In this document: in pieces, positions 3,328-24,764 of the stretch
How the letters are laid out: the number at the start of each line of letters is the position of its first letter
Position numbering within the stretch: the first letter of the stretch is position 1
Source: a virus
Lineage: Duplodnaviria; Caudoviricetes
Reading direction: 5' to 3' (one strand)
DNA length: 64,000 nucleotides
Virus record (IMG/VR): IMGVR_UViG_3300025389_000011
Position numbers and translations under genes: made by a program
Notes under the pieces: model-generated
Seen by the model: only the letters and a program-made list of their open reading frames with translations
Databases searched by the model: none
Told to the model about the DNA's origin: nothing

Positions 3328-3765
3328 TTACTTTCGTGAACCATTTCTAAAAAGGTCATCTTCGGTGATTACTCTGAAGGTATACCCTTGAGTTTTACAG
3401 TAAGCCATTGCGGCTTGCCACTTTGCATGATTAATTGCAACAACAATTTTATCTCTAGCACTTGCCGCACGACTTTCAATTAAACTTTGTTTTTTAGGTT
3501 TTATCTCAACAACTTCAGCAATTGATTTACCGTACTTGTTTTGATATACTACAAAAAAGTCAGGTATATATTTGTGTATTTTTCCATCTAATGGACTACG
3601 ATAGGGTATTGCTAATGCTTCACTGGCCCAATGAGTTACATTATTGTGTGTATCGCAAAATGTCATGAATGTTAATTCCCAACCACTGCGATATTTAGGC
3701 TTATGCTGACCTACGTACTTGTGTGGGTTTTTTGGAGTAAATATACCTTGTGCATAATTTGCCAT
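3328..3765 (-). CDS. gp4: Head completion nuclease (T4 gp4 / TnsA-N-like PD-(D/E)xK)
   Basis: YRSGWE...WASE..IPY...Y.PDF...EIKP motifs. Confidence 0.85.
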   Translation of the reverse strand: MANYAQGIFTPKNPHKYVGQHKPKYRSGWELTFMTFCDTHNNVTHWASEALAIPYRSPLDGKIHKYIPDFFVVYQNKYGKSIAEVVEIKPKKQSLIESRAASARDKIVVAINHAKWQAAMAYCKTQGYTFRVITEDDLFRNGSRK

Positions 3766-6093: not shown

Positions 6094-8958
6094 TTAAGCA
6101 CCATTAGATGATGATATTGCTCCGGTATTTAACACTCTAACTGGAATGTAGATGAATTCTGCTGCCTTAACTGGCTCGATTGCAACGTCAATCCATAATT
6201 CATTTCTATCAATTCTAGCTGGAGTATTGTTACTTTCGTCACAAACTACCAAATAATCGTATATACCGCGTTTAGCAACTAAATCAATAAGCAATGTTTG
6301 AACAACACCTGAAATTTGATTGCGTGTTAATGCATCGTTAGGCTCAAATACGAATGGTCTTGCCGCTATTGTTAATTGTCTACGTAAGTAAGCAATTAGT
6401 CGTGCAACATTTGTTCTATCTAACGCACTATTAGATGCATAGCTTGTTTTGTTACCAAAGTTCAATAGACCAACACCAGTAAAGAATACTAATGGATTGA
6501 TGTAATTGATATACAATGTGTCACGAATACCAAGGTTAGTTTTGATCGTAATAAATTGACCAGTTGTTCTATCTAGATAACCAATGTTTGTTGCATTATC
6601 AATAATACCACGACGTGTACCTGCTGCCGCAAACCAAGGATAAGCAATAGTATCATTGCGTAAGAATGTACGAATCATCATGTGACTTGGTGGAACAGCA
6701 ACTAAGTTACCTGTCAAATCAGTTGTTAAACCACTTGGATAGAATAGACCTAAATAAGTGTCACGTGTAACGCAACCTTGCTCGTCTGTTCTTGGAGCAC
6801 CTGCGGCATTTGTAGCCCATGCTTGAATTGCAGTAGCACTAGCCGGAAGTCCCATTGGTGTGTCACCTAAAATGTATCCTGTGTCACCACGGTCTGCATT
6901 TAATACAACCATGTTAGGTTGTAGTTCTTCATAGTAAGGACATGCAATTAAATTAAAATAGTTGTCTTCATCACGAATATCTGTGTTAGTATCAACAACA
7001 CTACTCAATGATTTAACTACCATTTCACGTTGAGCAAATCTACCCATGTAAGGAGCACCATTAGTTTGATTACCACTTGCTGTTACCCATGTATAACTGA
7101 ACTCTGGTAAGTTACCAACTGTTGTAGGAGCACTTGGATTATAAGGATTAGCATTAGGATAATTTGCACTTGTAAAATAATTTGTTCTAAATTGTTTTAC
7201 ATTATATCCTGAACGGCGCGTATTCCATAAAATCATACCATTTGGATATAGTGAAGGATCCGGAGCATCTAAGTCAATATAGTTACTAGTTAGCAAACTT
7301 TGAATTGTTGGGATAGGATCGTTAACTGGATCAATAGCACCAGAACTTCCCCAACGTGCATCTTCAAATATAATACCAGTACTGCTTGTATCTGCTGTAT
7401 TATTAATCAATACCCATGTATTTGAACCATTGACTAATTGATAACGATATATCAACGGATATAATTCTAATGCATCAATGCCAGTATCAATCCAAATATC
7501 ACCGTATTGTAATGATGTACCATCACTTTGTACTGTTGGTTGACTTGCACTCATGATAGGACCATTTGGATCAGTATTGTTACTACCAGTGTGTGCTGGG
7601 AAACCAGATGTGTCATAAGCTAAATTGTTATAACCATTCCATTGACCATTGTAGTTAACCATTAAATCAACTTGGTCATTAACACTATAGAACCAGTTAG
7701 TGTAATCAGCTGGTAATGTAGCTGGAGCACCGTTATTTGATGCATATGTAAATGATACCCAATTACTTAACTGAGTTGCATATATTTGCGGAATTGCATT
7801 TCCAGAAACATATGTTACTGCTTGAATTCCACCGCTGATTACGCTAACAACTTTAAGTACTAAATCATTAGCTGGAGTAGTACCACCTAAACTTGTACCT
7901 GCAATTGTTACCGTGTCGCCTGCGGCATAACCTGTACCTGCAGTTACTATACAGTTATTAGCTATTATGTACTCACCGTATTGAGGTGATACTCTGAAGG
8001 TAGCACCTGTACCACTACCTGTAGTACTAGTTGGTGAAACTGTAAATATTTGAGCATATGAAGGTCCATATTTTACTCCACTAGTTTCATCTGCAACAAT
8101 ACCAATCTGTGCTAATACACCACTATGTTTACCTTCATTTGAACCAGATATTATGGCATCATATAAAAGAATCTCACCACCTGCGGTGTGTGTTAATTGA
8201 ATAGCGCCGTCTGTAGTAACACTTGCTGTTGTATAGGGTGCTCCTGCAGCCGCCCATGAAGTAACAAAATCACTAGGACTCATGCCATTTGAAATAGACA
8301 TATTGTAATAAGTAGACAAACTTGTAGAACCCGGGATACTTACCCTGATACCCATAATAGTTGGACTATCTAGAATACCACTTAATGTCCAATTTGTTGT
8401 TGTACCAGTAATTACTGTAGGTCCAGTAGCTATGCGATTCCATAAATACACTGGCCCTTGATTGTAACCACCATCAAATCCATATTGTGCATAAACTGTA
8501 CCAGCTGGAATAGCTTGACCACCTGTTGCATCTAATAAAGAATCTACAGTCCAATCAGCAGTTGCCGTTAATACTGATAATGCTTTCCAACTTTGTGTCA
8601 CACCATTATATTGAGATACAACTGGATTTAAACCAGTTGTTGATGTGGCCACTTGAATCCATACTGATCCAGTTGGAGCAGGTTGTGCTTGACTTTTAGA
8701 CCATAATGGCATTTGAGCAGATGTACCGTATGCTACTGATGGTTGAAAATAATATGCAGGAGTAACAATAGAACCAAACAATGCTGTTAATAACTCTGTT
8801 GTACCAGTAACTATTTCTAGAAACGGACGTTGTCCTGGTAATTCTGGTTGTGCTGAAAAAATATTTAATTTTCCAGATATTACCGATGCACTAATATAAG
8901 TATAACCTAAATTATTAATTGCTGTAGCTAATCCTGCTACAGTATTGTTCCCATTCAA
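6094..8958 (-). CDS. gp18: Tail sheath protein, central and C-terminal part (TTG start, no well-spaced SD)
   Basis: PWFAAAG.RRG, YIN.INP, GNKT, LDR.NVARL, FVFEPND, EPVKAAEFIYIP sheath motifs. Confidence 0.9.
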   Translation of the reverse strand: MNGNNTVAGLATAINNLGYTYISASVISGKLNIFSAQPELPGQRPFLEIVTGTTELLTALFGSIVTPAYYFQPSVAYGTSAQMPLWSKSQAQPAPTGSVWIQVATSTTGLNPVVSQYNGVTQSWKALSVLTATADWTVDSLLDATGGQAIPAGTVYAQYGFDGGYNQGPVYLWNRIATGPTVITGTTTNWTLSGILDSPTIMGIRVSIPGSTSLSTYYNMSISNGMSPSDFVTSWAAAGAPYTTASVTTDGAIQLTHTAGGEILLYDAIISGSNEGKHSGVLAQIGIVADETSGVKYGPSYAQIFTVSPTSTTGSGTGATFRVSPQYGEYIIANNCIVTAGTGYAAGDTVTIAGTSLGGTTPANDLVLKVVSVISGGIQAVTYVSGNAIPQIYATQLSNWVSFTYASNNGAPATLPADYTNWFYSVNDQVDLMVNYNGQWNGYNNLAYDTSGFPAHTGSNNTDPNGPIMSASQPTVQSDGTSLQYGDIWIDTGIDALELYPLIYRYQLVNGSNTWVLINNTADTSSTGIIFEDARWGSSGAIDPVNDPIPTIQSLLTSNYIDLDAPDPSLYPNGMILWNTRRSGYNVKQFRTNYFTSANYPNANPYNPSAPTTVGNLPEFSYTWVTASGNQTNGAPYMGRFAQREMVVKSLSSVVDTNTDIRDEDNYFNLIACPYYEELQPNMVVLNADRGDTGYILGDTPMGLPASATAIQAWATNAAGAPRTDEQGCVTRDTYLGLFYPSGLTTDLTGNLVAVPPSHMMIRTFLRNDTIAYPWFAAAGTRRGIIDNATNIGYLDRTTGQFITIKTNLGIRDTLYINYINPLVFFTGVGLLNFGNKTSYASNSALDRTNVARLIAYLRRQLTIAARPFVFEPNDALTRNQISGVVQTLLIDLVAKRGIYDYLVVCDESNNTPARIDRNELWIDVAIEPVKAAEFIYIPVRVLNTGAISSSNGA

Positions 8959-8962
8959 TGAC

Positions 8963-9748
8963 TTAATCTGGACTTCCTGGAACGGCTACTGTAAAGTTAA
9001 AAAAGCCATTCATGTTAAATTCAATAGTGTCACCTGCAACTAATGTTGGGTTGGAATTTGTACTTTGAATAGTTGGCCAATCATTAGCCCAGTCACTAGA
9101 TCCTACAACTGCCCATGTATTATTAGAAGTTTTGTAAAAATATTGACCATATTGGTTAGGTGCACTTGATGGAATTTCAATTGCATTTACTGCATAGTCA
9201 CCTATGTTACCAATACTTTGTAACGGAACTTCTCCGCTTAATTGATCTGCTTGATATATTACAATAGGATTCATTAAAGAGAATGTTCCCGTTGTAGCAT
9301 CAAATTCATTAATACCCCATGTACTATTGATAGTATCTAACCAATATGTGCCGGCTGCCGGAGCGCCAATTGGACGACTTGTTGAACCTACTAAACTTGC
9401 TAAATCAATATCAGCACGAATAACATAACAACGATTGGAAACACCTAATGCGCTGTAAGCCGCTAATAGACCATATTCATTTAATTCATATCCTTGAATC
9501 GGTGTACCATTAGTTGTTGTGTAGAAAAATGGAGTACCATAATTTTGCACTAAGTCTTGTTGACTTGTAGCCAAATATAATTGACCCGCATTTGCTAATG
9601 TAGTACCAGGAGCTACGCCTGTACCTGATGGATTAGATTTGTTTTGTGCTGTTGCAATAATTACTAGTGGAACAGAGCCGGTTGAGGCTGGTAAATATTG
9701 ACTCTGGTCAATGATATCTACTTCTACGCCTGGTGATGATAATGCCAT
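8963..9748 (-). CDS. gp18: Tail sheath protein, N-terminal part (261 aa), separated from the rest by a stop and frame change
   Basis: MALSSPGVEVDIIDQSQY, FG.P, ELNEYGLLAAYSAL..SNRCYVIRAD are sheath N-terminal motifs. Confidence 0.85.
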   Translation of the reverse strand: MALSSPGVEVDIIDQSQYLPASTGSVPLVIIATAQNKSNPSGTGVAPGTTLANAGQLYLATSQQDLVQNYGTPFFYTTTNGTPIQGYELNEYGLLAAYSALGVSNRCYVIRADIDLASLVGSTSRPIGAPAAGTYWLDTINSTWGINEFDATTGTFSLMNPIVIYQADQLSGEVPLQSIGNIGDYAVNAIEIPSSAPNQYGQYFYKTSNNTWAVVGSSDWANDWPTIQSTNSNPTLVAGDTIEFNMNGFFNFTVAVPGSPD

Positions 9749-11733: not shown

Positions 11734-12147
11734 TTATAAATCGCCGTCTTTACGATTTTCACTATAAAATGCATCAAATGAACCGCCGGGATAACGGCTT
11801 TCAAGTTTGCGTACATTCTCAGCAATAACTTCATTAGGGTCAAGATTTAATGCACGACAAGCATTAATCCAATACCACATGATATCACCCAATTCACGTT
11901 TCATATGAAATACATTTTCATCAGTAAGAGGTTTACCTTGAAAAAAGATTTTTTTGGGCACTTCTATAAATTCACCGCTCTCAGCCGCTAATCCAAGACA
12001 TGCAGTTAACAATAGCGGTACATTGATATCAGGACCACCATCATTACCATCAACTTCATCTAGTCGATTCATGAAAGTAGTTAACTCATTGCTAGGCTGA
12101 CTGGTTACTGCTTTTACAAATTCACTATACTTATTCAAATCTATCAT
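11734..12147 (-). CDS. mazG: MazG-like nucleotide pyrophosphohydrolase
   Basis: GLAAESGEF.E..KK, ELGDIMWY, N..KLE.RYP. Confidence 0.85.
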   Translation of the reverse strand: MIDLNKYSEFVKAVTSQPSNELTTFMNRLDEVDGNDGGPDINVPLLLTACLGLAAESGEFIEVPKKIFFQGKPLTDENVFHMKRELGDIMWYWINACRALNLDPNEVIAENVRKLESRYPGGSFDAFYSENRKDGDL

Positions 12148-12326
12148 TCTAATTCCCTAAACATTTGTTTTCTACTTTCCTCACCTATTGTTGCATCAAA
12201 CAATTCTTTAGTACGTTGCAACATAGCACAGGCAAGCATTAATAATTCGTCCCTATCGTCAGTTAATGATATTGAATTATCAATCAATATCATCATTTCT
12301 GCCATTCGTTTTTGTATATCTGTCAT
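12144..12326 (-). CDS. Hypothetical protein (60 aa)
   Basis: ORF with ATGA-type overlaps on both sides. Confidence 0.65.
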   Translation of the reverse strand: MTDIQKRMAEMMILIDNSISLTDDRDELLMLACAMLQRTKELFDATIGEESRKQMFRELE

Positions 12327-13468
12327 TAGAATGCTTTCAAAATAATCATGTTCTCGTTAAAACGACCATTGGGTACTGCACCAACTGCCTTAATTGATTT
12401 AAAATACTTACGTGCCGCAGGTTTGCTTCCCATAACTTCTTTGATTTGCTCACCGGGCTTACGTAGTGTTTTCATTTCACTATTTGTAGTATCAAATCCA
12501 ATCAATGTGTTGCCCTTTACTTGGAATTCTTTTGTATACTCGTCAGCGATATAGTGATGCAACTTACGCTTTGCAGTATCATATACCCATGCCTCAGTTG
12601 CATGATGCAACTTAGTTGGATGGATACTTGTTAAGTCTAATTCTGCATCCTTAAATGCTTTTAAGTATTTTAACTTAGCAACAATCTTTTCAACAGGTAT
12701 TGCTTTACGTTTGCGAGGTGCTTTATTGGCTTTCTTAATACTAACATAACTATTTAGGTCACTTAGTACTTGTTCAATAAACTTAAGCATATTACGCAAT
12801 TGAATTTTACCTAAGTTACCATAGGCACCTTTCAACTCACTATCTATGGTTTCTGTTAATTCTTCATATTGCTTTTGTTTTTGTTTCCAAACGTCAACGA
12901 TAAGTGAAATATGTTGAGGCATTACATTATAACCTGCAACGATGTCAACTACTTTTGATGTTGTTTTACCTGTTGTAAAATATTCGTCAAACATGCCTTC
13001 AAGTTCACCGGCAGCCTCGCTAGCCTTCTCACGCATGATTTCTTGAATGTTAGGACGATTGGATACTACTACTTCTTTTTCTACAACTTCAGGCTTGTTG
13101 ATAACTGACAACAATCGTGAAATATCATTTTGAAGTACTGTATTTTCATGTTCATTTAACTGCAATCCACGTAATGTCATACGTGCTAACCAACATGTGG
13201 TCATTGAAAATTCTTTGTCCTCTATCTTACGAATAAATTTGGCATCGGCTACACGTTCATTGTGGTCTAGGTATTGAGCCAATAGTTCTTTTGCATCTTT
13301 TTTACCATAGAAACGATTGTACCAGGTAAATCCTTGTGTAAGTGCAACGTTTCTTTCTCCCCCTTCAAGCTGGATAGGAAAGAAGGGTTCATCTCCCATG
13401 TATTTTGTATCCGCATCTTTTGGGTTAAGTGCTTTGACAAAATGGTCATCTGTTTGTTTGCGAGCCAT
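12326..13468 (-). CDS. Hypothetical basic protein (380 aa), early-promoter driven
   Basis: ORF track; SD GGAG; sigma70 promoter at 13499-13527. Confidence 0.75.
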   Translation of the reverse strand: MARKQTDDHFVKALNPKDADTKYMGDEPFFPIQLEGGERNVALTQGFTWYNRFYGKKDAKELLAQYLDHNERVADAKFIRKIEDKEFSMTTCWLARMTLRGLQLNEHENTVLQNDISRLLSVINKPEVVEKEVVVSNRPNIQEIMREKASEAAGELEGMFDEYFTTGKTTSKVVDIVAGYNVMPQHISLIVDVWKQKQKQYEELTETIDSELKGAYGNLGKIQLRNMLKFIEQVLSDLNSYVSIKKANKAPRKRKAIPVEKIVAKLKYLKAFKDAELDLTSIHPTKLHHATEAWVYDTAKRKLHHYIADEYTKEFQVKGNTLIGFDTTNSEMKTLRKPGEQIKEVMGSKPAARKYFKSIKAVGAVPNGRFNENMIILKAF

Positions 13469-13498
13469 AAATTACTCCAAAATAGTCATTGAATACGT

Positions 13499-13527
13499 AT
13501 TGTAACATAGCTTTTATCTATTGTCAA
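13499..13527 (-). promoter_or_regulatory. sigma70-type early promoter
   Basis: TTGACA-17-TACAAT. Confidence 0.75.
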
Positions 13528-13577
13528 GTTTTTGGTACAAAGGTATTAGCGATAAATAGATAATAAAGTGAGTAAAT

Positions 13578-15278
13578 ATGCCTAAACTATCGCTTTGGCG
13601 CCCGAATAAAACGAATGATTATAACTTTTTTGATAGAACTATATCAGAAATGTTTACCGTCGGGGCCACAGACCTATACGTACATAAATATTTAGGGCCA
13701 ACTAATCAGGGCCCTTCAACAGATTATACACAGCCTGATTATGCCGTGCAAAGTCCTACAAATATTCAAGATTTATTATTCTTAGAAAACAGGGATAGAG
13801 CATATGATACAAACATTTATAGATTACGTGGTCATTATACCGTACAAAATTTAGATTTTGATTTAAGTCAATTTGGATTATTTTTAAACAATGACATTAT
13901 ATTCGTTACTGTTCATTATAATGATATGATTGGTTTAGTAGGAAGAAAATTAATGGTAGGTGATGTTATTGAATTACCTCACTTAATAGATTATAATCCA
14001 TTGGACGAAACAATACAATATGCGTTGAAAAGATTTATGCAGGTTACTGATGCTAACTATGCAAGTGAAGGCTTTAGTCCAACATGGTTCCCGCATTTAT
14101 GGCGTATTAAATTAGAACCATTAACTGATAGTGAAGAATTTAGTCAGATATTAAGTCAGCCTAATAACTTAGACACTTATCTTGGTGTGTGGGATAATAC
14201 AAAAACATATCCCGCCGGATATGTAATCACATATGGTGATAAAAATTATGTCTCAACTCAGGCTGTGCCGGCTGGCGTTAGTCCACCTGATCCTAATTAT
14301 TGGCAATTGGATACAAATAGTGACTTGAAAGATGTCCTTGCAACATATAATAAAAATATCAAAATCAATGATGCGGCACTTGCAGAGGCAGAACGTCTTG
14401 TACCCGCATCTGGGTATGATGCAACTAATTTATTCATTGTTCCAACATACGGTGAATATGAAAGTAATAATGTACCTTCTAATAAAATTAATCAGCCGGC
14501 TCCACCGACAGCAGTAGTTGTCCCTAACACTGGTTCTATACAAATTGTTACACCGCCTGGATATGCAGATGCTCCTGTAGTTAGAATTTCTAAATCAACG
14601 TTAAAAAAATTACAAGATAGTAGTCCAAGTAACTTTGAAAAGTTAGATTTTTTTAATACGTTAAACATAGAAAAGGTAACACTAGACCCGGTTAAATCTG
14701 AAAGCGGTAATGGATCTGGTTTTGTAAGTGGACCACAGATATTATTAGTGTCATCAATGGGCACAATAAAAGGCCCATATGGTACAGCAGATAATACCTA
14801 TGCAACTGCTGACCAAAATCCAGAAGCACCTAATTTTACTGGAACAGAACCATATGGTCCAAATACAATGGATTATCGTGCAGATTGCGACCCTTCATTT
14901 GCATACATAGCACGTAGTACTCCTCGTACCTTTGGTTACTCAACAGGTTATATGACCGGAGACGGTACTTCTCCAAACGGAATACCAACTGGTGCAGGTA
15001 TAAGTTTCCCGCAAAACCCGCAAGTAGGAGATTATTTCTTACGTATTGACTATTTACCTCAGTTGCTATATCGTTGGGACGGTAGAGTATGGGTTCGCAT
15101 ATCAGCCAATGTACGAACACAAACAGGGTTTGCTGATAGTGCTAACCAATCACAATTGTCAGGATTTATCAACAATTCAAACGTTACTGTTCTTTCAAAT
15201 GGCACTACAATACCGCAATCACAACCACTTTCAAGTATATTAACACTATCACCAGATGTGATACCACCGGGAACTTAA
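13578..15278 (+). CDS. Neck protein gp14-like with C-terminal extension
   Basis: DLLFLENRDR.YD, QNLDFDLSQFGLFL.ND, VGDVIELP motifs; precedes gp15-like gene. Confidence 0.7.
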   Translation: MPKLSLWRPNKTNDYNFFDRTISEMFTVGATDLYVHKYLGPTNQGPSTDYTQPDYAVQSPTNIQDLLFLENRDRAYDTNIYRLRGHYTVQNLDFDLSQFGLFLNNDIIFVTVHYNDMIGLVGRKLMVGDVIELPHLIDYNPLDETIQYALKRFMQVTDANYASEGFSPTWFPHLWRIKLEPLTDSEEFSQILSQPNNLDTYLGVWDNTKTYPAGYVITYGDKNYVSTQAVPAGVSPPDPNYWQLDTNSDLKDVLATYNKNIKINDAALAEAERLVPASGYDATNLFIVPTYGEYESNNVPSNKINQPAPPTAVVVPNTGSIQIVTPPGYADAPVVRISKSTLKKLQDSSPSNFEKLDFFNTLNIEKVTLDPVKSESGNGSGFVSGPQILLVSSMGTIKGPYGTADNTYATADQNPEAPNFTGTEPYGPNTMDYRADCDPSFAYIARSTPRTFGYSTGYMTGDGTSPNGIPTGAGISFPQNPQVGDYFLRIDYLPQLLYRWDGRVWVRISANVRTQTGFADSANQSQLSGFINNSNVTVLSNGTTIPQSQPLSSILTLSPDVIPPGT

Positions 15279-15281
15279 TAC

Positions 15282-16652
15282 ATGGCACAATTTTTTTATG
15301 ACAATCAAATACGCAGATTTTTAATTCAATTTGCAAAAATATTTAGTAACTGGTATGTAACTAAAGGTAATGATCCAGCAGGTAATCCAATATTAGTTCG
15401 TGTACCTATCATGTACGGTGATAGCAGTAGACAAGCGGCTACTATTATTGCTAACAATAGCGCAAGTAATTTACCAAGTGCACCTTTAATAACATACTAT
15501 ATAAGTGGTTTAGAGTACAATCAAAAATGGACTCAAGATCCTACTTATGTAGATAATATACAAGTACGTCAACGTAGTTATAACCCAGAAACTCAACAAT
15601 ATGAACCTGTACAGGGTCAAGCATTTACTATAGAACGATTAATGCCTGTACCTTATACATTACGAATTAGTGTAGATTTTTGGACTACTAATTATAATCA
15701 GAAACTAGAAATTATTGAGCAGTTAGGAACATTATTCAATCCGGCATTAGAAATACAAAGTACTGATAACTTTGTTGATTGGACGAGTTTAAGTGCGGTG
15801 TTTCAAGATGGGCTAACTTTTACTAGTCGTAGTATACCAGTAGGTAGTGGTAATCCAATTGATGTCATGACATGGAAATTTTACATGCCCATATGGTTAA
15901 GTACAGCAAGTAAACTGAAGAAGATGGGTGTTATTGAAAAAATTATTGCAAGTATTTTTGCCGGTAATGCATTATCTGATATACAAGATAATGATTTATT
16001 ATTAGGCACACGACAAAAAATTACCCCATATGGTTATAAGTTATTGTTATTGGGAAATCAATTACAGATATTACCTGCAGATGAAGCATTTTATCCAAGC
16101 AATGTTGATTTAGATTTGCCTCCAAGTCCTGCAACAGATATTTATTGGACCAGTGTATTAAATGTATACGGTGCTATAAGTCCTGGGATCAGTCAAATTT
16201 GGCTACAAAACCCTTATATAGACCATGACATTGTTGGTACTATTGTTCCAAACCCAACTGACGATAGATTTTTAATATACAATATTGACCCTGATACGTT
16301 ACCACAAAATACATTAGATCCCGTTAACGGTGTTATAAATCCACAAGTGACAGGTCCAAATGCTGGTTTGCCGGGACCTGTCAACGGTGTTCGATATTTA
16401 ATCGTTGAAAATATCGGTAATCCAGGAGATAGTACAGTATCTTGGGGAAATCTTGTAGCAAATGCCAATGATATTATTGAATTTGATAGTGGCACTATGC
16501 AATGGTTTGTAGCATTTGATAGTCAAAATGATACATCTGTGCAATATGTAACCAATTTATCTACACAAATTCAATATAGATATGTTGATGGAATTTGGAT
16601 GAAATCATATGAAGGTTGGTACGACCAAGGTGATTATTCTATAGTGATTTAA
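15282..16652 (+). CDS. gp15: Tail terminator / sheath stabiliser (gp15-like)
   Basis: FFYD.QIRRFL.QF..IF, RVPI.YG, PVPY.L..., QKLEI.EQ...LFNP. Confidence 0.8.
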   Translation: MAQFFYDNQIRRFLIQFAKIFSNWYVTKGNDPAGNPILVRVPIMYGDSSRQAATIIANNSASNLPSAPLITYYISGLEYNQKWTQDPTYVDNIQVRQRSYNPETQQYEPVQGQAFTIERLMPVPYTLRISVDFWTTNYNQKLEIIEQLGTLFNPALEIQSTDNFVDWTSLSAVFQDGLTFTSRSIPVGSGNPIDVMTWKFYMPIWLSTASKLKKMGVIEKIIASIFAGNALSDIQDNDLLLGTRQKITPYGYKLLLLGNQLQILPADEAFYPSNVDLDLPPSPATDIYWTSVLNVYGAISPGISQIWLQNPYIDHDIVGTIVPNPTDDRFLIYNIDPDTLPQNTLDPVNGVINPQVTGPNAGLPGPVNGVRYLIVENIGNPGDSTVSWGNLVANANDIIEFDSGTMQWFVAFDSQNDTSVQYVTNLSTQIQYRYVDGIWMKSYEGWYDQGDYSIVI

Positions 16653-16670
16653 TTTTTGATAAATTACTAT

Positions 16671-17087
16671 ATGAGTAACACATCCGCAGGCGTTTTCTTT
16701 TACAGCAAAAATACCAATCGTTATCTTTATATGCTTAGAACTGATTCCAAGAATCCAGGCAATTGGGGTATTCCAGGTGGAAAAATAGAAGACAATGAAA
16801 CATTACTTGAAGGCATTATAAGAGAATGTGAGGAAGAAGTTGGATATTTTCCACAAGATGGAAAATTAATCCCAATACAAAAATTTATTAACAACAGTTT
16901 TACATATCATACATTTTTCTGTGAAGTAGAAAATGAATTTGTTCCTATACTCAATGAAGAACATTGTGGCTACGCTTGGGTAGGGGAAAGTCAATATCCC
17001 AAACCATTACATCCCGGACTATTTAGTACTGTTAATTTTGATGTTGTACAAGAAAAACTAAACACACTAACAAAAAAGACTGCCTAA
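16671..17087 (+). CDS. NUDIX hydrolase (ATG 16671 preferred over TTG 16656)
   Basis: GG.IE..ET....IIRECEEEVG Nudix box. Confidence 0.9.
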   Translation: MSNTSAGVFFYSKNTNRYLYMLRTDSKNPGNWGIPGGKIEDNETLLEGIIRECEEEVGYFPQDGKLIPIQKFINNSFTYHTFFCEVENEFVPILNEEHCGYAWVGESQYPKPLHPGLFSTVNFDVVQEKLNTLTKKTA

Positions 17088-17099
17088 GCAGTCTTTTTT
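17072..17099. terminator. Bidirectional terminator between convergent genes
   Basis: AAAAAAGACTGC-CTAA-GCAGTCTTTTTT. Confidence 0.85.
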
Positions 17100-17421
17100 A
17101 TTTTAACAATTTACTAACTGTATCAAATCCCATTGAGCCTAATACAACACCTGCTCCCATAATCATCCAGCGCCATTTCTCTAAAGCAGAAACTTTGCTG
17201 GCTAATTTATCATGAGCCTGCATGTCTTCGTCACGCATGGTTTTCAACATGTTCCTTGTTTCCTCAGCATTATTTTCTATAGTCTGGTGCATAGCCCTCA
17301 AATCCTCTTTAATCTCACCGAATTTATCTTCGATGTTTTTAACTTGAACTTGAAGTACTGCTATATCAGTCTCAGCTTGTACTTTTAATGCTCTGGAACT
17401 ATTAACTGCCATTTTATGCAC
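17098..17421 (-). CDS. Coiled-coil protein with C-terminal hydrophobic segment (possibly holin/XhlA-like)
   Basis: Heptad-rich body and WRWMIMGAGVVLGSMG tail. Confidence 0.5.
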   Translation of the reverse strand: MHKMAVNSSRALKVQAETDIAVLQVQVKNIEDKFGEIKEDLRAMHQTIENNAEETRNMLKTMRDEDMQAHDKLASKVSALEKWRWMIMGAGVVLGSMGFDTVSKLLK

Positions 17422-18676
17422 TCGCTATCTGTACTAATGGATAAGGCATTGCGTTAGCTACGTTTGCATCTGCTTCACTATTAAATGTAGCATAAGCAGG
17501 AGCTGAATTGTTGATATTTGCTGTACCTGTTGCAACTACACCTGAGTTAGCAGTAAACAACTCAACAGTATGGTCAGATAAACTCTGAACAGCTTGAGTA
17601 GTACTATTAGCGTATGTAGCAATAATGTGCATTGTATTTGGTGTTAATGCTGTGTTAGCAAGATTTGCCAAATAACATTGTGCTGTTAAGCCAGTTACTG
17701 TACCTGTTACTAGATATTTTTGTTTGCCTTTTTGACGAACAATATAACCTGCTTCTGGTAGTGCACCTAATATTGGGTCTCCAAAACCATTGTAGCCTGC
17801 CGCATTAACTGCTGAGTTAGTAGCCAATAATGCTTGTTGTTGAATAGCATTAGCAGTTACGCTTGAGTTTGATGTCAATGCTACGTTTGGACCGCCAATT
17901 GTAGTTGATACTGTAAATGCAGCCGCATTAGGAACAGCATTAATAAAGTATGTACTACCTGCAGTTAATCCACCGAATGAAGTGTCAAATACAACAGGAG
18001 TACCTGTTTGTAGAGTTTGTGCATTACCTGAAGTACCGATAACATTACCAGTAGCACTTGAGTTAGCAACTGCAACTGTTCGGTTACCTATATTGTTTGA
18101 TACTGTACCTAATAGGTTTACACTATAATTGCCTGGAGTACCTTGATATGCATAAAGATGTGTACCATTTGCTACGGCAGCAAAATTAGTACCTAAACCA
18201 ACAACTAATGGACTATTATTACTTGCAAAAATTGTACCAGCTACGTTAGCACCAATAGCAATATTAGCTAAAACTTGTTTACCAACGATAGCTGTGTTAC
18301 CACCAACTACGCTATATGTGTTAGCATTAGTTGTTGGGAAGCCTGGACCACCATTTGGATTGTTGAAATATGCATCAACTACAGCAACAGATGCACTTAC
18401 TGTTTGACCTGATGTGTTTGTTAATGTTGGATATACACGAGGCTGTACGCTTAAGTTTGTTGAAGATACATTGAATGTCGTACTAGTTAATACTTGATTA
18501 ATGTAATATGTCGTATTAGCTGTCAATCCACCTACAGTAGATGCTGTTACGAACGGCATACCTGCAATGATACCTAATGTGTTTAAATTTTGTGATACTG
18601 TTACAACACCTGTTGTAGCTGTACCAGTGATTGTTAAGACTGCTTGAGCCTTAGCGATTTTTAGAGGACGTCCCAT
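17414..18676 (-). CDS. T/A/N/G-rich virion structural protein (420 aa)
   Basis: Beta-rich composition; GYIVRQKG..KYLV motif; late box and SD AAGGA. Confidence 0.7.
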   Translation of the reverse strand: MGRPLKIAKAQAVLTITGTATTGVVTVSQNLNTLGIIAGMPFVTASTVGGLTANTTYYINQVLTSTTFNVSSTNLSVQPRVYPTLTNTSGQTVSASVAVVDAYFNNPNGGPGFPTTNANTYSVVGGNTAIVGKQVLANIAIGANVAGTIFASNNSPLVVGLGTNFAAVANGTHLYAYQGTPGNYSVNLLGTVSNNIGNRTVAVANSSATGNVIGTSGNAQTLQTGTPVVFDTSFGGLTAGSTYFINAVPNAAAFTVSTTIGGPNVALTSNSSVTANAIQQQALLATNSAVNAAGYNGFGDPILGALPEAGYIVRQKGKQKYLVTGTVTGLTAQCYLANLANTALTPNTMHIIATYANSTTQAVQSLSDHTVELFTANSGVVATGTANINNSAPAYATFNSEADANVANAMPYPLVQIASA

Positions 18677-18795
18677 TTGATTTTCCTTTGTAATATTTGT
18701 GAGTTCCAGTCACTACGCAGTGGGTACTGCATAAATTCTCCCTATGAGAATGTACAAAGTATTTATCTATATTACGTAAAAATTGCTGTTTTGGA

Positions 18796-19083
18796 TTATT
18801 CTGTACCAGTAACTGCGTGTGGAGCACCAAGTGGTGTCACGCTGAACGCACCTGCTGTGCCAGCTACGTTGATAAAAGCAATATAATTACCTTGACCTAC
18901 GATAAAACTGCGCTCAACTGTGTTAGCTGGAATAATTTCGCTAGATGTAAGATTAGCTACAACACTTGAGTTACCGACTGATACCGCTATTGCCGATGTG
19001 GTTGTAGCGATACGAACTTTATCAGTTGTACTTGCTGATGTTAATTGACTTGAACCGTTAGCTGTATAAATTGTTGTTGCCAT
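18796..19083 (-). CDS. Small structural protein (95 aa)
   Basis: Late box ATAAATA and SD AGGA; T/S/A-rich. Confidence 0.65.
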   Translation of the reverse strand: MATTIYTANGSSQLTSASTTDKVRIATTTSAIAVSVGNSSVVANLTSSEIIPANTVERSFIVGQGNYIAFINVAGTAGAFSVTPLGAPHAVTGTE

Positions 19084-19108
19084 TTTTTATTCCTGTATTA
19101 TATTTATC

Positions 19109-22100
19109 TTAAAGTCTACCAACTGCAACCTCGATAACACCTACACCTTCATGATTTTCCAATGCTTTACCAATGACTGTGCCTATTGAGGGATTAAATG
19201 CTGGTCTTGCGTATCCATTACCACCGCTGACTAACATATCGCCTTTTTTGATTGACCCGCGTACTTTACAAGGAACACGTCCTTGTAGTGCAATTGCTAC
19301 TGCTATACCTGAACAACCTGCATTCATTGCATATGCAGGATCAGTTGACACAACACCTGCTACTCTATTAGTGCCATCCTGTGCAACTGTAACTTCTTTA
19401 TCGCCACCAAACTCTAAAACTGTTCCAGGTTCGTAAACGGCATCGGCTTCATAATATTCTGCCAAGTCAGCATATGTTGCATTTAATCTTGATCCTGCAC
19501 TTAATGACCAGTTACCAGTTATAGTGCCTGTTGTTGTGTTTGCACCAGTTGTTAATGTGTTACCTAAATGTGTAGCACCTGTTCCACCTATATTGGCAGT
19601 TGAAGATATATTTCCAGTTACAGATAAACTTGTTAATGTACCTAAACTTGTAATATTTGGTTGAGCATTTGTGGCTAATGTACCTGTTAACAATGTACCA
19701 CTTACGTTACCTGCACTTACGTTACCAGTTACAGATAAACTTGTTAATGTACCTAAACTTGTAATATTTGGTTGAGCATTTGTGGCTAATGTACCTGTTA
19801 TTAAACCTGAATTGGCAGTGATATTTACTGCGGTTAATGTACCATTAACACCCAAACCTGTCAAAGTACCTAATGAAGTAATATTACCTTGTGCCGCAGT
19901 TGTTACAGTACCTGCTGTAGTTGCACTACTTACTGTACCTGTTACGTTAGCTCCGGCAATATTTGTTAAATTAGCACCAGAACCAGCAAATACAGTAGCT
20001 GTTAGCGTTCCTGTGTTTTTATTGTACACAAGACCTAAACTACCGGCCATGTTACCTGCATCATTAAATTGAACTTCTGTATTTACACCGGCCGGTGCAT
20101 AGTTGCTCGAAACATTACCTATATTTAAACCACCGCCTACTACAGCCGCCCAACCCGCTACAGCGGATGTAAATGTTATAGTTAAAGCATTAGCATTGGT
20201 GTAGTTGATTGTAGGGAAATCATATCTGCCCACATATGAATTACCATTACCATCAATTGGTTCTACAGTTACATATTGCCTATTGAGATTGTGTACTACT
20301 GTCCATGTTGTAGCCGCAGATGCCTGTGTATGTAGATAATACCCACCTGTTGGATTAGTCCAACTAAGATTACCTGAACCATCAGTTTGTAAAATTTGAT
20401 TGGCACTACCACCACTGATATACACGTTCCCAACACTATTAAGATTGCTCTTTCCAGATACTGTTAAACTTGTTAATGTACCTGTGCTAGTAATATTGGG
20501 TTGAGCCGCTGTGGTTAGTGTACCACCTAATGTAGTACCACTTACATTACCTACAAATGTAGTTGTTATTAATGCACCATTTGCAATATTTGCAGAGAAT
20601 GTTGCGTTGGAATTTATTCCGTAATTTGCATTAGCAGTACCTGAAATAAAAGGTAAATAGTATGTTCCACTTGTTACTAGTGATACTGTACTTGTGTCTG
20701 CAACATTGGCACGACTTGAATATAAATTTGGTACTTGGGTAGAACTTAGTACAACCAATGGACTTGTACCATTTGCAATGTTTGATTGAAGTTGGGTATT
20801 AGCAATTATTATGCCACCTGCAACTAAATTACCAACAACTGCATTCCCGGTACCTGTATTTAATGTACCCGCAACATTAATACCAGTTCCTGTTATTGTT
20901 AGTGTTGTATTACCAACTGCTGAAATAGATACATTACCATTTGCTGTTGCAATACGTACATTACTATTTCCGTTAGCTAACGGGCCATATACATTTCCTG
21001 TTATATTTCCTGTTGCATTAATAGTACCTGCAACATTAATGCCTGTACTTGTAACTACTAATACATTAGGTGTGCCATTAACACCAACCAATACGTTACC
21101 TGCACTTGCCGGAATAGATACATTACTAGTACCATTGGCAAATATACCAATGAAGTTACCACTAGTTGTGTTACCAGTTACTGCTAAGTTTGTCAATGTA
21201 CCAAGTGTAATAATGTTAGGTTGATTATTTGTTGTTAATGTACCGGTTAGTAATGTAGCACTTAAATTACCTGTTGCTACATTAAATGACAGGTTTGCAT
21301 TTGCACCTTGTGATAAATTACCTGATGTAGCGTTTACAAATATAGGATAATATGTGCCAGTAGTTTGCAATGTTGTTGTGCTTGTATCGCTTATACCAGC
21401 ACGTGCTACATATAAATTTCCAACCTGTGTAGTACTTGTTACTGTTAATGGGCTTGTGCCGGTAGCAATGTTTGAAACTAAAACAGTGCCAGTAATAATA
21501 CCATTTGCATTTATATTTCCTGTATTTACATTACCAGTTACTGATAATGCCCTGCTATTTGCATCGAATGTAAATCCTGCATTACCTGCTAATTGACCAC
21601 CATAATTATATTGTACGCTGTTCTGCACACCTGAAGCTACACCTGTTCCACCGCCGCCACTAGTGATAACTGCTGTTGCAAGACCTGTGTTTGCAGTTGC
21701 AGTTAATGTAGCACCATTAGCTCCGATTGTTCTGGATACATCCGTGTATAAACTTACATTACCGGAAGTTGGGTAATTATTAGATAATGTAATATAAAAT
21801 GACTTCCCATTTACTACACTATTTGCGTTTGTACCAAGAACACCTGATATTGTTATTTGTTGACCATTAGTGTAAGGTGTAGTGTTGGCTACTGTCATTA
21901 CGATAGGATTAGCATTAGATAACGCTTGTATAGGTGTATATAGCGTACCTTTAGGTGTCCAACTTAAATTACCAAGACCATCTGTTTCTAACACATAGCC
22001 AATAGCACCACCGCCCATGTATATGTTACCAACATTACCTAATTGAAGTTTTCCTCCATCAAGTTGTACATTTTGTCCTGTGTAATTTTCCCATGTATTT

Positions 22101-22366
22101 GTACTTGATACATAGGTAAGAATTTGTCCGTTAGTTAGATTACCAAGATTAAAGTTTGCACCGTTAGCACCGTCAATCTGACTGAAACTGATGTTACTGT
22201 AACTTGTTAATACTTCAATGTTTTCACTAGCAATGGTGTTTCCAGTGCGCCCAATGAACAGTCTATTTTCATCGGAAGCGAAACCAAATTCTGCATTATC
22301 TAGTTGAGGTAGGTCAACAAGATTACCGGATCTTGTTTGAATTTTGCTGATTTGTACTATGGCCAT
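19109..22366 (-). CDS. Tail fibre-like protein (1085 aa) with Mtd_N-like N-terminus and chaperone-like C-terminal domain
   Basis: MAIVQISKIQ.R.G...LPQL...EFG...D..RLFIG; QPNITSLGTL repeats; C-terminal ADLAEYY...GVVST.PAY...GRVPCKV...KGD.LV...GKALE. Confidence 0.8.
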   Translation of the reverse strand: MAIVQISKIQTRSGNLVDLPQLDNAEFGFASDENRLFIGRTGNTIASENIEVLTSYSNISFSQIDGANGANFNLGNLTNGQILTYVSSTNTWENYTGQNVQLDGGKLQLGNVGNIYMGGGAIGYVLETDGLGNLSWTPKGTLYTPIQALSNANPIVMTVANTTPYTNGQQITISGVLGTNANSVVNGKSFYITLSNNYPTSGNVSLYTDVSRTIGANGATLTATANTGLATAVITSGGGGTGVASGVQNSVQYNYGGQLAGNAGFTFDANSRALSVTGNVNTGNINANGIITGTVLVSNIATGTSPLTVTSTTQVGNLYVARAGISDTSTTTLQTTGTYYPIFVNATSGNLSQGANANLSFNVATGNLSATLLTGTLTTNNQPNIITLGTLTNLAVTGNTTSGNFIGIFANGTSNVSIPASAGNVLVGVNGTPNVLVVTSTGINVAGTINATGNITGNVYGPLANGNSNVRIATANGNVSISAVGNTTLTITGTGINVAGTLNTGTGNAVVGNLVAGGIIIANTQLQSNIANGTSPLVVLSSTQVPNLYSSRANVADTSTVSLVTSGTYYLPFISGTANANYGINSNATFSANIANGALITTTFVGNVSGTTLGGTLTTAAQPNITSTGTLTSLTVSGKSNLNSVGNVYISGGSANQILQTDGSGNLSWTNPTGGYYLHTQASAATTWTVVHNLNRQYVTVEPIDGNGNSYVGRYDFPTINYTNANALTITFTSAVAGWAAVVGGGLNIGNVSSNYAPAGVNTEVQFNDAGNMAGSLGLVYNKNTGTLTATVFAGSGANLTNIAGANVTGTVSSATTAGTVTTAAQGNITSLGTLTGLGVNGTLTAVNITANSGLITGTLATNAQPNITSLGTLTSLSVTGNVSAGNVSGTLLTGTLATNAQPNITSLGTLTSLSVTGNISSTANIGGTGATHLGNTLTTGANTTTGTITGNWSLSAGSRLNATYADLAEYYEADAVYEPGTVLEFGGDKEVTVAQDGTNRVAGVVSTDPAYAMNAGCSGIAVAIALQGRVPCKVRGSIKKGDMLVSGGNGYARPAFNPSIGTVIGKALENHEGVGVIEVAVGRL
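19614..19800. repeat. Two identical 76-bp copies, 111-bp period, inside the fibre gene
   Basis: 19614-19689 equals 19725-19800 by direct reading. Confidence 0.9.
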
Positions 22367-22416
22367 AAGTGTAATTTCTTCTGTTACACTTATTTATCAT
22401 AAAGTCACACTAAACT

Positions 22417-23100
22417 TTATACAAATTGTAGATAGTACTGTTCTACTCGTTTAAACCATAAATTAGTGTAACTATCAAATTCATCACCTTCAATAATGAA
22501 TTCTTGGTACAATCCACTAGGATCGCACATGAAAATTACGCCTTTACGTATGTTTGTCCCATGCACTTCGTTGTGTGCGTTTGCATATGCTGCCAATTGA
22601 ACAAAGTAATCATCAATCCATTCACGTTTTTTTGGTTTATTTGTTTGCTTATGGTCCATAATAGCTTCACTGCCATTATGAATACCACATAAATCCGTTG
22701 TTCCAGCATAGATTTGTGGATAATATAATGCAACTTCGGTGCCCCAAAATTCATTACAATTTACAAGACCTTGTTTGATGATACTGTTTGCCATCATATG
22801 ACTTTGAACGCTGTAGGGATTACTGCCCGGATCTCCGGTTTCACCCGTCTTTATATAGTTTTCAAGCCATTTATGCATACGTGTGCCACGACCTGCGGCT
22901 TCAGTTGTTATCTCTTGCGCTTTTTGAAAGCCAACACGCTTACGCCAATTGTTTAATGCTTGTTTACTTTCTTCACTTTTAGTAGCATCTAGTATAGTTG
23001 TTACGCTTGGGAGTTTTTCACCGTCTGGTGTAAGATATCTACGCTTCCCATCTACTTCAACACGTTGCATGGGCTCATAATTATATTTGTTTGTTATCAT
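22417..23100 (-). CDS. PD-(D/E)xK exonuclease (lambda-exo/MGME1-like)
   Basis: LPSVTTIL, A.RGT.MH..LE, E..LY, AGTTD, IMDHKQT, QLAAY. Confidence 0.85.
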   Translation of the reverse strand: MITNKYNYEPMQRVEVDGKRRYLTPDGEKLPSVTTILDATKSEESKQALNNWRKRVGFQKAQEITTEAAGRGTRMHKWLENYIKTGETGDPGSNPYSVQSHMMANSIIKQGLVNCNEFWGTEVALYYPQIYAGTTDLCGIHNGSEAIMDHKQTNKPKKREWIDDYFVQLAAYANAHNEVHGTNIRKGVIFMCDPSGLYQEFIIEGDEFDSYTNLWFKRVEQYYLQFV

Positions 23101-23106
23101 AGTTTA

Positions 23107-23952
23107 TTATTTTTTAATAGTTGGGTAAAATTTATTTTTAAGCCCTACTTTATTATATAGCCAATCATTTATATAATCAAGAGCAGATGGATAAATGTTA
23201 TTTAATAAATCTCTGTGTATGCCATATACTTTAAAATTGGCACTATATATTCCATATAGTTTACTGGATAAACTATCGATATCTTTTTCCCACAAACTTG
23301 TTCCGATTGATTTTGATTTATAATTTACAAGTTGTTCTTTTATCAAATAAGAATAAAATATAAATTCACTAGTATTAAATCCAATTTGGTTTTCATTAAT
23401 AGTCTCAAAAAAAATATGCTTTAGAGAATCCATGGTGGTAGAATTTCTTATAAGACTTGCATCAATCACAAACGGAGTAAATGGTGCTAGTGTTTCTTTA
23501 ATAGGATCAACATTAAATAATTTTGCGTAATGATTATTGGTATCACTAAATCCCGTAGCAGCCTCTTCTGACAGCACACCTGAACCTATAATATACTCAA
23601 ACTCGTCTAGTTTAGTGGGTTTTACAAAGAAATTTTTACTATCTAATAACACATAATTTTCTAAACATTTATAATATGCTAAGTGTGCAATTATAAATTT
23701 ATGCCATTGTTGTGTTACCCAACCTGACAACAACTCATAATCTTTAACATCATTTGGTATGATAGCTGGATAAATTAATAATGTATGGTTTTTATAATAA
23801 GGGGCTAACCATTTGTACCAAAAATCAATATCAGGTTTATGTTCATTAACTACAATCACGTGAACACAAGGTTCCACAAATTGTCCAATACTTTCTGCTT
23901 GTAATAGCATTTGTTGAAAATCTCTGTTACACACAATGGTAGCTAAAAACAT
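23107..23952 (-). CDS. Hypothetical protein, DUF6492-like; paralogue 1
   Basis: W..QQ..K....LLDSKNFFVKP motif; similar to the adjacent gene. Confidence 0.6.
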   Translation of the reverse strand: MFLATIVCNRDFQQMLLQAESIGQFVEPCVHVIVVNEHKPDIDFWYKWLAPYYKNHTLLIYPAIIPNDVKDYELLSGWVTQQWHKFIIAHLAYYKCLENYVLLDSKNFFVKPTKLDEFEYIIGSGVLSEEAATGFSDTNNHYAKLFNVDPIKETLAPFTPFVIDASLIRNSTTMDSLKHIFFETINENQIGFNTSEFIFYSYLIKEQLVNYKSKSIGTSLWEKDIDSLSSKLYGIYSANFKVYGIHRDLLNNIYPSALDYINDWLYNKVGLKNKFYPTIKK

Positions 23953-23962
23953 TTTTGAACCT

Positions 23963-24763
23963 TTATTTAATATAGGGATAAACTTTATTGTTTAGCTGTA
24001 CATGATTAGATAACCAATCATTTATAAAATTTATTCCAGTGGGATATAATCTATGCAATATTTTTTTATCTAAACTATATACTTTAACATCATCTTCTCG
24101 TTGACATAACTTAAACTCTAACATGTTTATATCAGAATCTTTTATAGTTTTACTTATTTCTTTAGTATGTTTAAAATCATTAATTTCCTGAACATCTACC
24201 AAATATGTATAAAATAAAAATTCGTTCATTGGCAATGTCATATCTTTAAATAATACATCAGATAACCAATCAACATTAATCATTGACATATATTTTTGGT
24301 GTAACACAAAAGGAAATTTAGGTGCAATCGATTTACCTACAGGTGCTACATTGAAATAATTTGCATAGTACTCATTTGTGAGTTTATATTTTTGAGTAAT
24401 ATCAACTAATTTTCCAGAACCAATTGTATTTTCAAAATCACTTAATTTAGTTGGTTTAATAAAAAAGTTATTGGTATGTAGCAACAAACAATCATCATCA
24501 ATCTTACTAGCAATATTTACCAATAACTTTTGTATTTTTCTGCTATCATATGCATTTTTATTTTTCAGCACAATAGAAGGTACCACAAGTAATTCATGAT
24601 TTTTGTAGTAAGGACTCAACCATCTATAGTAAAAATTAACATCAGGCTCATCTTCATTAACAATGATAACGTGAGTGCAAGGCTCAAAAAACTTTTGAAT
24701 GCTTTCTGCCTGTAATAACAATTGTGAAAATTCGTTATAACAAGTAACTGTTGCTAGGTACAT
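23963..24763 (-). CDS. Hypothetical protein, DUF6492-like; paralogue 2 (start corrected to ATG 24763)
   Basis: MYLATVTC...LLLQAESI..F.EPC.HVI.VNE aligns by eye with the paralogue N-terminus. Confidence 0.6.
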   Translation of the reverse strand: MYLATVTCYNEFSQLLLQAESIQKFFEPCTHVIIVNEDEPDVNFYYRWLSPYYKNHELLVVPSIVLKNKNAYDSRKIQKLLVNIASKIDDDCLLLHTNNFFIKPTKLSDFENTIGSGKLVDITQKYKLTNEYYANYFNVAPVGKSIAPKFPFVLHQKYMSMINVDWLSDVLFKDMTLPMNEFLFYTYLVDVQEINDFKHTKEISKTIKDSDINMLEFKLCQREDDVKVYSLDKKILHRLYPTGINFINDWLSNHVQLNNKVYPYIK

Positions 24764-24764
24764 C

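What the first reader, a model, noticed from the sequence alone, without database searches (positions are those of the whole stretch)
8945..8985. Essential tail sheath gene is interrupted by a stop codon and frame change
Seen (minus strand): ...CCA GGA AGT CCA GAT TAA GTC A|TTG AAT GGG AAC AAT ACT GTA GCA. The N-terminal 261 aa end at TAA (8963-8965); the 954-aa remainder is in the +1 frame with only a TTG start 5 nt later and no well-spaced SD. Removing 1 nt (PDKSLNGNNTV) or 19 nt (e.g. PNNTVAGL) restores one ORF; from memory, unverified, related sheaths read roughly VP.SPNNTV.GL, which would favour a 19-nt insertion. Inference: (a) an assembly error or defective genome, (b) +1 recoding or short bypass at a stop, as in RF2 or T4 gene 60, or (c) a naturally two-chain sheath made by re-initiation. 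No matching GAY landing codon is nearby, so classical matched-codon hopping is not supported.
Basis: partly seen in the sequence, partly recalled or inferred. Interest (0 to 1): 0.75.

Follow-up and report, generated by a model that had tools for sequence, protein, structure and literature searches.

The report
Private 19-base lesion in sheath gene
The tail sheath gene of this freshwater jumbo phage is split only in this one assembled contig, by a 20-base foreign patch, while at least ten otherwise identical contigs carry the gene intact, so it is most likely an assembly or library error or a dead-end mutant and not a recoding signal.

Summary
On the minus strand a 261-aa ORF (9748..8963, TAA at 8965-8963) is followed by a 954-aa ORF (8958..6094, TTG start) in the +1 frame. 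Together they make a jumbo-phage tail sheath.

An intact 1211-aa sheath reads ...VPGSPNNTVAGL... and is 100% identical to both halves. It sits on at least 10 contigs from independent JGI, ENA and Logan assemblies.

At DNA level the window has 20 nt (AGATTAAGTCATTGAATGGG) where the siblings have a single T. This is the only indel between the window and its sibling contigs across all 64 kb, which are 99.98-100% identical. The two split proteins are on record from one contig only.

None of 80 related viral loci or 119 homologues is interrupted at this site. The site is a conserved motif in a confidently modelled strand-helix loop inside one domain.

The 20-mer, extended to 26 nt by the native AACAAT, is identical to the coding sequence of a copia-type retrotransposon reverse transcriptase. 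Those contigs carry names from what looks like the same JGI series. That points to mixing in the tube or the computer, not in a bacterial cell.

No bypass, frameshift or re-initiation signal was found. Verdict: a private, non-programmed lesion, most likely technical. Low interest. Read mapping could not be run.

The parts
8963..9748 (-). N-terminal fragment of the tail sheath gene (261 aa, P0001). It ends ...VPGSPD and then TAA.
   Evidence: tblastn hits to annotated jumbo-phage tail sheaths. Residues 1-260 are identical to the intact P0003.
8949..8968 (-). Foreign 20-nt patch AGATTAAGTCATTGAATGGG. It takes the place of the single T of the intact allele (CCT AAC), a net gain of 19 nt. It carries the TAA stop and the TTG.
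   Evidence: DNA alignment with four intact sibling loci. Unique in the window even with 3 mismatches allowed. Identical to copia-type RT coding sequence in 8 metagenome contigs.
6094..8958 (-). C-terminal fragment of the tail sheath gene (954 aa from the TTG, P0002), in the +1 frame.
   Evidence: PF17482 Phage_sheath_1C at residues 842-941. From NNTVAGL onward it is identical to P0003 residues 261-1211.

Best explanation
The split is a technical artefact of this one assembled contig. A short piece of co-sequenced foreign DNA, 20 nt of a eukaryotic copia-type retrotransposon reverse-transcriptase gene, has been spliced into the sheath gene, either during library preparation or during assembly, gap closing or consensus building. 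In the natural phage the gene is one uninterrupted 1211-aa ORF. Shown: the lesion is on record from one contig only, the intact allele is widespread and otherwise identical, and the patch is identical to foreign DNA. Inferred: that the patch arose in vitro or in silico. The exact technical route is not known.
For: (1) The intact allele P0003 (1211 aa) is 100% identical to both halves. It was found on at least 10 contigs, including JGI 3300025357 and 3300025781, ENA ERZ27271977, ERZ27272000 and ERZ27272014, and Logan SRR5260840. (2) The split products P0001 and P0002 are on record from one contig only, the 223,865-bp JGI contig. (3) Sibling contigs cover window 1-64000 at 99.98-100% identity. 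The only indel anywhere is this one. (4) The change is complex: 20 nt replace one T. It is not a duplication, and no local template exists in the window. (5) The 20-mer occurs in 8 contigs encoding a copia-type RT (PF07727 RVT_2, E 2e-42), where it codes in frame for ...EIKSLNGNN.... Identity runs on through the native AACAAT to 26 nt. By my own estimate a 26-mer match in a collection of this size is expected about 2e-4 times by chance. (6) Those contigs carry names of the same numeric series (Ga00078xx, Ga0208xxx) as the phage's sibling contigs. This suggests one sampling project in which the two DNAs were sequenced together. A bacterial virus and a eukaryotic retroelement would not normally meet inside a cell.
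Against: Raw reads could not be examined, so the artefact is not demonstrated. De Bruijn assemblers do not invent k-mers, and the phage and the retroelement share only 6 nt on one side and about 6-7 of 10 nt on the other. I therefore cannot name a concrete assembler step that would yield a patch that returns to the same position. A three-part chimeric read would have to outweigh the correct reads. The source sample and assembler of the window's contig are hidden from me. A second, unrelated contig (L088) also holds the 20-mer, as expected by chance for a 20-mer, so only the 6-nt extension makes the retroelement match significant.
Confidence: 0.72

Rival explanations
1. The insertion is real DNA but a non-functional lesion. 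It would be a recent, private mutant allele with a broken sheath gene, for example filler DNA captured during repair of a break. It would be carried briefly in the population by co-infection with wild type, or be a dead-end genome that happened to be sampled.
For: An assembler normally needs reads that contain the junctions, which fits a real molecule. The flanks are otherwise clonal, as expected for a very recent event. The 6-nt AACAAT microhomology at one edge resembles templated-insertion repair.
Against: It is seen on one contig only, against at least 10 intact ones. It breaks an essential structural gene inside a conserved motif and a folded domain, yet it would have had to be the majority allele to be assembled into a 224-kb contig. 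The template is a eukaryotic retroelement, which a phage of bacteria has no obvious way to meet in vivo.
Confidence: 0.2
2. Programmed recoding. Ribosomes would pass the TAA either by a +1 frameshift at GAT TAA G, giving ...SPDKSLNGNNTV..., or by hopping over about 19 nt, giving one full-length sheath chain.
For: A stop codon sits in the A site directly at the frame change, and the downstream frame is open for 954 codons. A purine-rich AGGAAG lies 4 nt upstream of the GAT codon, loosely like the prfB stimulator. That run is native sequence, also present in the intact allele.
Against: The feature is not conserved. 0 of 80 related loci and 0 of 119 homologues carry it, and identical-flank siblings lack it. 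For a hop from CCA or GAT the required landing triplet is GGG, which does not match. The only matching pairs (GTA...GTA, GGA...GGA) would delete 8-10 conserved residues and are not next to the stop (read). tRNA-Asp cannot re-pair from GAU to AUU. The 81-nt RNA around the site folds no better than shuffles (z = -0.33). A +1 product would put 6 extra residues into a loop where almost no homologue has any insertion. A sheath is needed in hundreds of copies, which low-efficiency recoding could not supply (general knowledge).
Confidence: 0.03
3. A natural two-chain sheath. The 261-aa and 954-aa products would be made separately, the second by termination-reinitiation at the TTG 4 nt after the stop, and would assemble non-covalently.
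For: The stop and the TTG are close enough for coupled re-initiation in principle. Both fragments keep 100% of the native sequence.
Against: There is no Shine-Dalgarno at a working distance. In the AlphaFold model the break falls between a strand (model residues 101-106) and a helix (115-124) of one compact domain, at pLDDT about 96. It is not at a domain boundary. The motif is conserved and unbroken in all relatives. The split is on record from one contig only.
Confidence: 0.03

Closest known systems
Contractile tail sheath proteins of jumbo myoviruses (Agrobacterium phage Atu_ph07, Pseudomonas phage PA5oct, Rak2-like phages; T4 gp18 superfamily)
   Same: There is a C-terminal Phage_sheath_1C domain. 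The N-terminal roughly 150 residues are 50-54% identical and the C-terminal roughly 550 residues 38-44% identical to annotated sheaths. Neighbours are gp13-like, gp15-like and terminase genes.
   Different: The protein is long (1211 aa), with large middle insertion domains. In this window alone the gene is cut in two.
Phage T4 gene 60 translational bypass
   Same: A stop codon lies at the point where the reading frame must change, with a short non-coding gap inside an essential gene.
   Different: There is no matched take-off and landing codon pair around the gap, no take-off stem-loop and no conservation in relatives. The gap is a patch of foreign sequence.
prfB (RF2) +1 programmed frameshift
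   Same: An in-frame stop is followed by the continuing frame at +1, with a purine-rich run a few bases upstream.
   Different: The P-site codon GAT cannot re-pair in the +1 frame. The product would carry 6 extra residues in a conserved loop. No relative has the site.
Chimeric or misjoined sequence in metagenome assemblies
   Same: The sequence is private to a single assembly. It is identical to unrelated DNA that appears to come from the same sample series. Everything else matches sibling assemblies base for base.
   Different: Usual chimeras are two-part joins. Here a 20-nt patch is flanked on both sides by the correct locus, and I cannot assign a specific tool step to that.

Membership tests
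Contractile phage tail sheath (T4 gp18-like) | Conserved C-terminal sheath domain | tested here: met
   PF17482 Phage_sheath_1C, E 1.8e-13, 50.8 bits against a cut-off of 26.9, residues 842-941 of P0002.
Contractile phage tail sheath (T4 gp18-like) | N-terminal region homologous to known sheaths, in the same gene as the C-terminal domain | tested here: met
   P0001 hits annotated tail sheaths (E down to 6e-43). In the hits checked by coordinates (PA5oct and Atu_ph07) the N- and C-terminal matches lie close together under one annotated sheath feature. P0003 is likewise one protein.
Contractile phage tail sheath (T4 gp18-like) | One uninterrupted reading frame | tested here: not met
   The window has TAA at 8965-8963 and a +1 frame change. 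The feature is met in at least 10 sibling contigs and in 80 of 80 related loci.
Programmed translational bypass (T4 gene 60 type) | Matching take-off and landing codons flanking the gap, with the take-off codon next to a stop | tested here: not met
   Read. The triplet before the resumed AAC codon is GGG, while the candidate take-off codons are CCA or GAT. No GAY or CCN codon sits at the landing position.
Programmed translational bypass (T4 gene 60 type) | Stable take-off stem-loop | tested here: not met
   The 81-nt fold has MFE -14.5 kcal/mol against a shuffle mean of -13.6 (z = -0.33).
Programmed translational bypass or frameshift (any type) | Conservation of the recoding site among relatives | tested here: not met
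   0 of 80 loci, 0 of 119 homologues, and siblings identical in the flanks lack it.
prfB-type +1 frameshift | P-site codon able to re-pair in the +1 frame (CUU U type) | tested here: not met
   The sequence is GAT TAA G. The +1 triplet is ATT, which does not pair with tRNA-Asp (read; pairing rule from established knowledge).
prfB-type +1 frameshift | Shine-Dalgarno-like stimulator about 3 nt upstream of the shift codon | tested here: inconclusive
   AGGAAG ends 4 nt before GAT. It is weak and is native sequence also present in the intact allele.
Naturally split (two-chain) structural protein by re-initiation | Split at a domain boundary, with a usable ribosome-binding site | tested here: not met
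   The break lies in a loop at pLDDT about 96, between a strand and a helix of one domain. There is no Shine-Dalgarno 5-10 nt from the TTG.

The most novel reading that the evidence does not exclude
The 20-nt patch is real phage DNA: a templated insertion copied from a eukaryotic retrotransposon, for example from environmental DNA taken up by the host and used as filler in break repair. The phage would tolerate it because ribosomes shift +1 or re-initiate at the TAA-GTCA-TTG junction. That would be a freshly born recoding site in an essential virion gene.
Probability: 0.02. Interest if true: 0.75.

Novelty: not a real feature. Interest (0 to 1): 0.08.

Why it matters
If the break were a genuine recoding site in a major virion protein, it would be a rare new case of translational bypass or +1 frameshifting. 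The evidence says otherwise. The natural gene is intact, and the interruption belongs to a single assembled record. The practical value is in annotation. This contig's sheath should be annotated as one gene with a suspected sequence error. The case also shows that a short patch of unrelated co-sequenced DNA can sit inside an otherwise perfect 224-kb metagenomic contig and mimic a recoding signal.

Tried and rejected
No whole genome is held either.

(2) Near-DNA search in GenBank phages found nothing. Only distant protein-level relatives exist there.

(3) Exact searches of IMG/VR for the interrupted and for the intact junction both found nothing. This phage population is not in that collection, so the searches were uninformative.

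(4) Local duplication or a template within the window: there is no copy of the patch with up to 3 mismatches. Only chance-level 10-11-mers occur. Rejected.

(5) A mobile mini-element that recurs inside other genes: the 20-mer does recur, but in those contigs it is ordinary in-frame coding sequence of a copia-type RT and does not interrupt anything. The ninth contig (L088) is an unrelated intergenic match consistent with chance. Rejected.

(6) A micro-intron: 19 nt is far below any known self-splicing intron, and no significant structure was found. Rejected on that basis, not tested at RNA level.

(7) An alternative genetic code: reading TAA as sense would not repair the frame, and the window's other genes are long ORFs under table 11. 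Rejected.

(8) Looking up the window's own contig record to learn its sample and assembler: the record was not returned.

(9) Literature searches for bypassing in sheath genes and for the JGI sample numbers returned nothing useful. My recollection that these contig-name series belong to a Wisconsin bog-lake time series is unverified.
Full report
**Observation.** On the minus strand the window reads ...GTA GCC GTT CCA GGA AGT CCA GAT TAA, then GTCA, then TTG AAT GGG AAC AAT ACT GTA GCA....
- An ATG-started ORF of 261 aa (9748..8963) ends at this TAA.
- A 954-aa ORF (8958..6094) follows in the +1 frame from a TTG.
- The only purine-rich run upstream of the TTG, AGGAAG, ends 14 nt away, so there is no usable Shine-Dalgarno.

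**What the gene is.**
- The 954-aa part carries the Pfam Phage_sheath_1C domain at its C-terminus (PF17482, E 1.8e-13).
- Both parts hit annotated tail sheaths of jumbo myoviruses by tblastn: Atu_ph07, Phosso, the PA5oct group and Rak2-like phages. Identity is 38-54%.
- In PA5oct and Atu_ph07 the coordinates show both parts under one annotated sheath gene.
- Neighbouring genes are gp13-like, gp15-like, MazG, terminase, helicase-primase and RecA-like. This fits a T4-like jumbo phage.
- The split proteins are recorded on a single JGI contig of 223,865 bp.

**The intact allele.** A search of the large protein collection with the first 400 residues of the C-terminal part returned P0003, 1211 aa and 100% identical.
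- Its sequence equals P0001 residues 1-260 followed directly by P0002 from NNTVAGL onward. The junction reads ...FTVAVPGSPNNTVAGLATAINN....
- P0003 is encoded on at least 10 contigs. Examples are JGI 3300025357 (a 146-kb contig), JGI 3300025781, ENA ERZ27271977 and Logan SRR5260840.
- Near-identical intact copies are in ENA ERZ27272000 and ERZ27272014.
- Gene calls of 1211 aa also appear on contigs of ERZ27271967 and ERZ27271979.
- P0001 and P0002 are each on record from a single contig.

**Anatomy of the lesion.** The DNA alignment shows the siblings reading AGTCC-T-AACAAT. The window reads AGTCC-AGATTAAGTCATTGAATGGG-AACAAT.
- Twenty bases replace one T, a net gain of 19.
- The change is not a tandem duplication.
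- The patch is unique in the window even with three mismatches allowed.
- No sub-string longer than 11 nt occurs elsewhere in the window.

**How different is the rest?** I fetched sibling contig pieces that together cover window 1-64000 and compared them by blastn.
- The JGI siblings are 99.99-100% identical: 0 or 1 mismatch per piece of up to 23 kb.
- The nearest ENA siblings show 0-30 mismatches per piece.
- No piece shows any indel other than the sheath one. The lesion is the single indel in 64 kb.

**Is it conserved or recurrent?** No.
- All 80 related loci fetched from IMG/VR (59-79% identity to the N-terminal part) give one in-frame tblastn alignment across the junction, without a stop.
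- In 119 full-length homologues the junction is a conserved motif, roughly T-[IV]-x-V-P-x-S-P-N-N-T-V-x-G-[VIL]-A-x-A-I-N. Hardly any of them has an insertion there.
- I built an AlphaFold model of residues 150-420 from a 34-sequence alignment.
- In that model the junction, at model residues 111/112, lies in a short loop between a strand (101-106) and a helix (115-124). Both belong to one compact alpha/beta domain, and pLDDT there is about 96.
- The break therefore cuts a domain in two and does not separate domains.

**Where the patch comes from.** An exact scan of JGI metagenome contigs for the 20-mer found nine contigs.
- One, L088, is a GC-rich bacterial contig where the 20-mer sits between genes. 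By my estimate a 20-mer is expected about once by chance in a collection of this size.
- The other eight are diverged copies of one element. In them the 20-mer is ordinary in-frame coding sequence (...AEEAEIKSLNGNNVLLP...) at the start of a reverse transcriptase.
- Pfam assigns that protein to RVT_2 (PF07727), the copia-type RT of eukaryotic LTR retrotransposons (E 2e-42).
- In most copies identity with the window continues through AACAAT, giving 26 identical bases. The 10 bases upstream are 6-7/10 similar (AGGA.G).
- I estimate a 26-mer chance match at roughly 2e-4, so the resemblance is unlikely to be coincidence.
- The retroelement contigs are named Ga0007805, Ga0007876, Ga0007878, Ga0208107 and Ga0208742. 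The phage's sibling contigs are named Ga0007834, Ga0007863, Ga0208383 and Ga0208386.
- From these names I infer one sampling project. I could not verify this.

**Interpretation.** A bacterial virus and a eukaryotic retrotransposon meet in the DNA extract, the library and the assembler. They do not obviously meet in a cell. Four points support a non-biological or at least non-functional lesion:
- single-contig occurrence;
- perfect identity elsewhere;
- an intact allele in every other assembly;
- a break in the middle of a conserved, folded motif of an essential, high-copy structural protein.

I rate a technical artefact at about 0.72 and a real but defective private allele at about 0.20.

The weak point is that I cannot name the step that would produce a patch flanked on both sides by the right locus. 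De Bruijn assemblers do not invent junction k-mers, and I could not see the reads or the contig's provenance.

**Recoding readings.**
- **Hop.** The triplet before the resumed AAC codon is GGG, which matches neither CCA nor GAT. The matching pairs that do exist (GTA...GTA, GGA...GGA) are not next to the stop, would delete 8-10 conserved residues, and are native sequence.
- **+1 shift at GAT TAA G.** tRNA-Asp cannot re-pair on ATT. The product would gain DKSLNG in a loop that tolerates almost no insertions.
- **RNA structure.** The RNA has no structure beyond chance (z = -0.33).
- **Re-initiation.** This would need a ribosome-binding site that is not there, and it would produce two halves of one domain.
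- **Origin.** A site created by a patch found in one contig cannot be a programmed feature of this phage lineage.

Together I give these readings about 0.06.

**Comparison with known systems.** The gene is a member of the contractile-sheath family. The interruption resembles T4 gene 60 and prfB only in having a stop at a frame change. It fails the defining features of both that could be tested here.

**Verdict.** Options (b) and (c) are not supported. This is not a real biological feature and interest is low. Read mapping on the source sample is the decisive test and remains to be done.

Noticed in passing
L085-L087, L089-L093 (e.g. L092:1-2369): A family of diverged copia-type LTR-retrotransposon pol genes (RVT_2, E 2e-42). 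It occurs in metagenome contigs whose names fall in the same series as the phage's siblings, so it probably comes from an abundant eukaryote in that water body. It is the apparent source of the 20-nt patch.
   Followed up: partly
window 19611-19689 and 19722-19800 (minus-strand gene 19109..22366, 1085 aa): Two 79-nt copies that differ by one base, 111 nt apart, lie inside the 1085-aa gene, which has no Pfam match. They show up as secondary blastn alignments in every sibling contig. This is an internal near-perfect repeat in a large structural-region gene.
   Followed up: no
L097 (ENA ERZ27272000 k141_171361) against window 11740-25285: A second strain of the same phage coexists in one sample, at 98.3% identity with 34 gap openings. 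Its MazG and gp13-like gene calls are shorter (83 and 253 aa against 137 and 265 aa). The population is therefore not entirely clonal.
   Followed up: no
L103:3246-3368 (ENA ERZ27272014 k141_35910): This sibling contig follows the sheath gene only to residue 764 and then diverges (blastn alignment ends at 3272 of 3368). Its end is probably chimeric or a strain-variant break. This is an independent example of assembly trouble within the same gene.
   Followed up: no
window 3328-3765 (minus): In sibling gene calls, a 145-aa protein just downstream of the sheath module carries a Tn7 TnsA-like N-terminal endonuclease domain (PF08722). An endonuclease VII gene lies at 35368-35790. Both are possible homing or repair nucleases and were not examined.
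   Followed up: no
window 1-64000: The window is part of a jumbo phage contig of about 224 kb. Its closest cultured relatives by sheath protein are Agrobacterium phage Atu_ph07, Sinorhizobium phage Phosso and the Pseudomonas PA5oct group, at only 38-54% amino-acid identity.
   Followed up: partly
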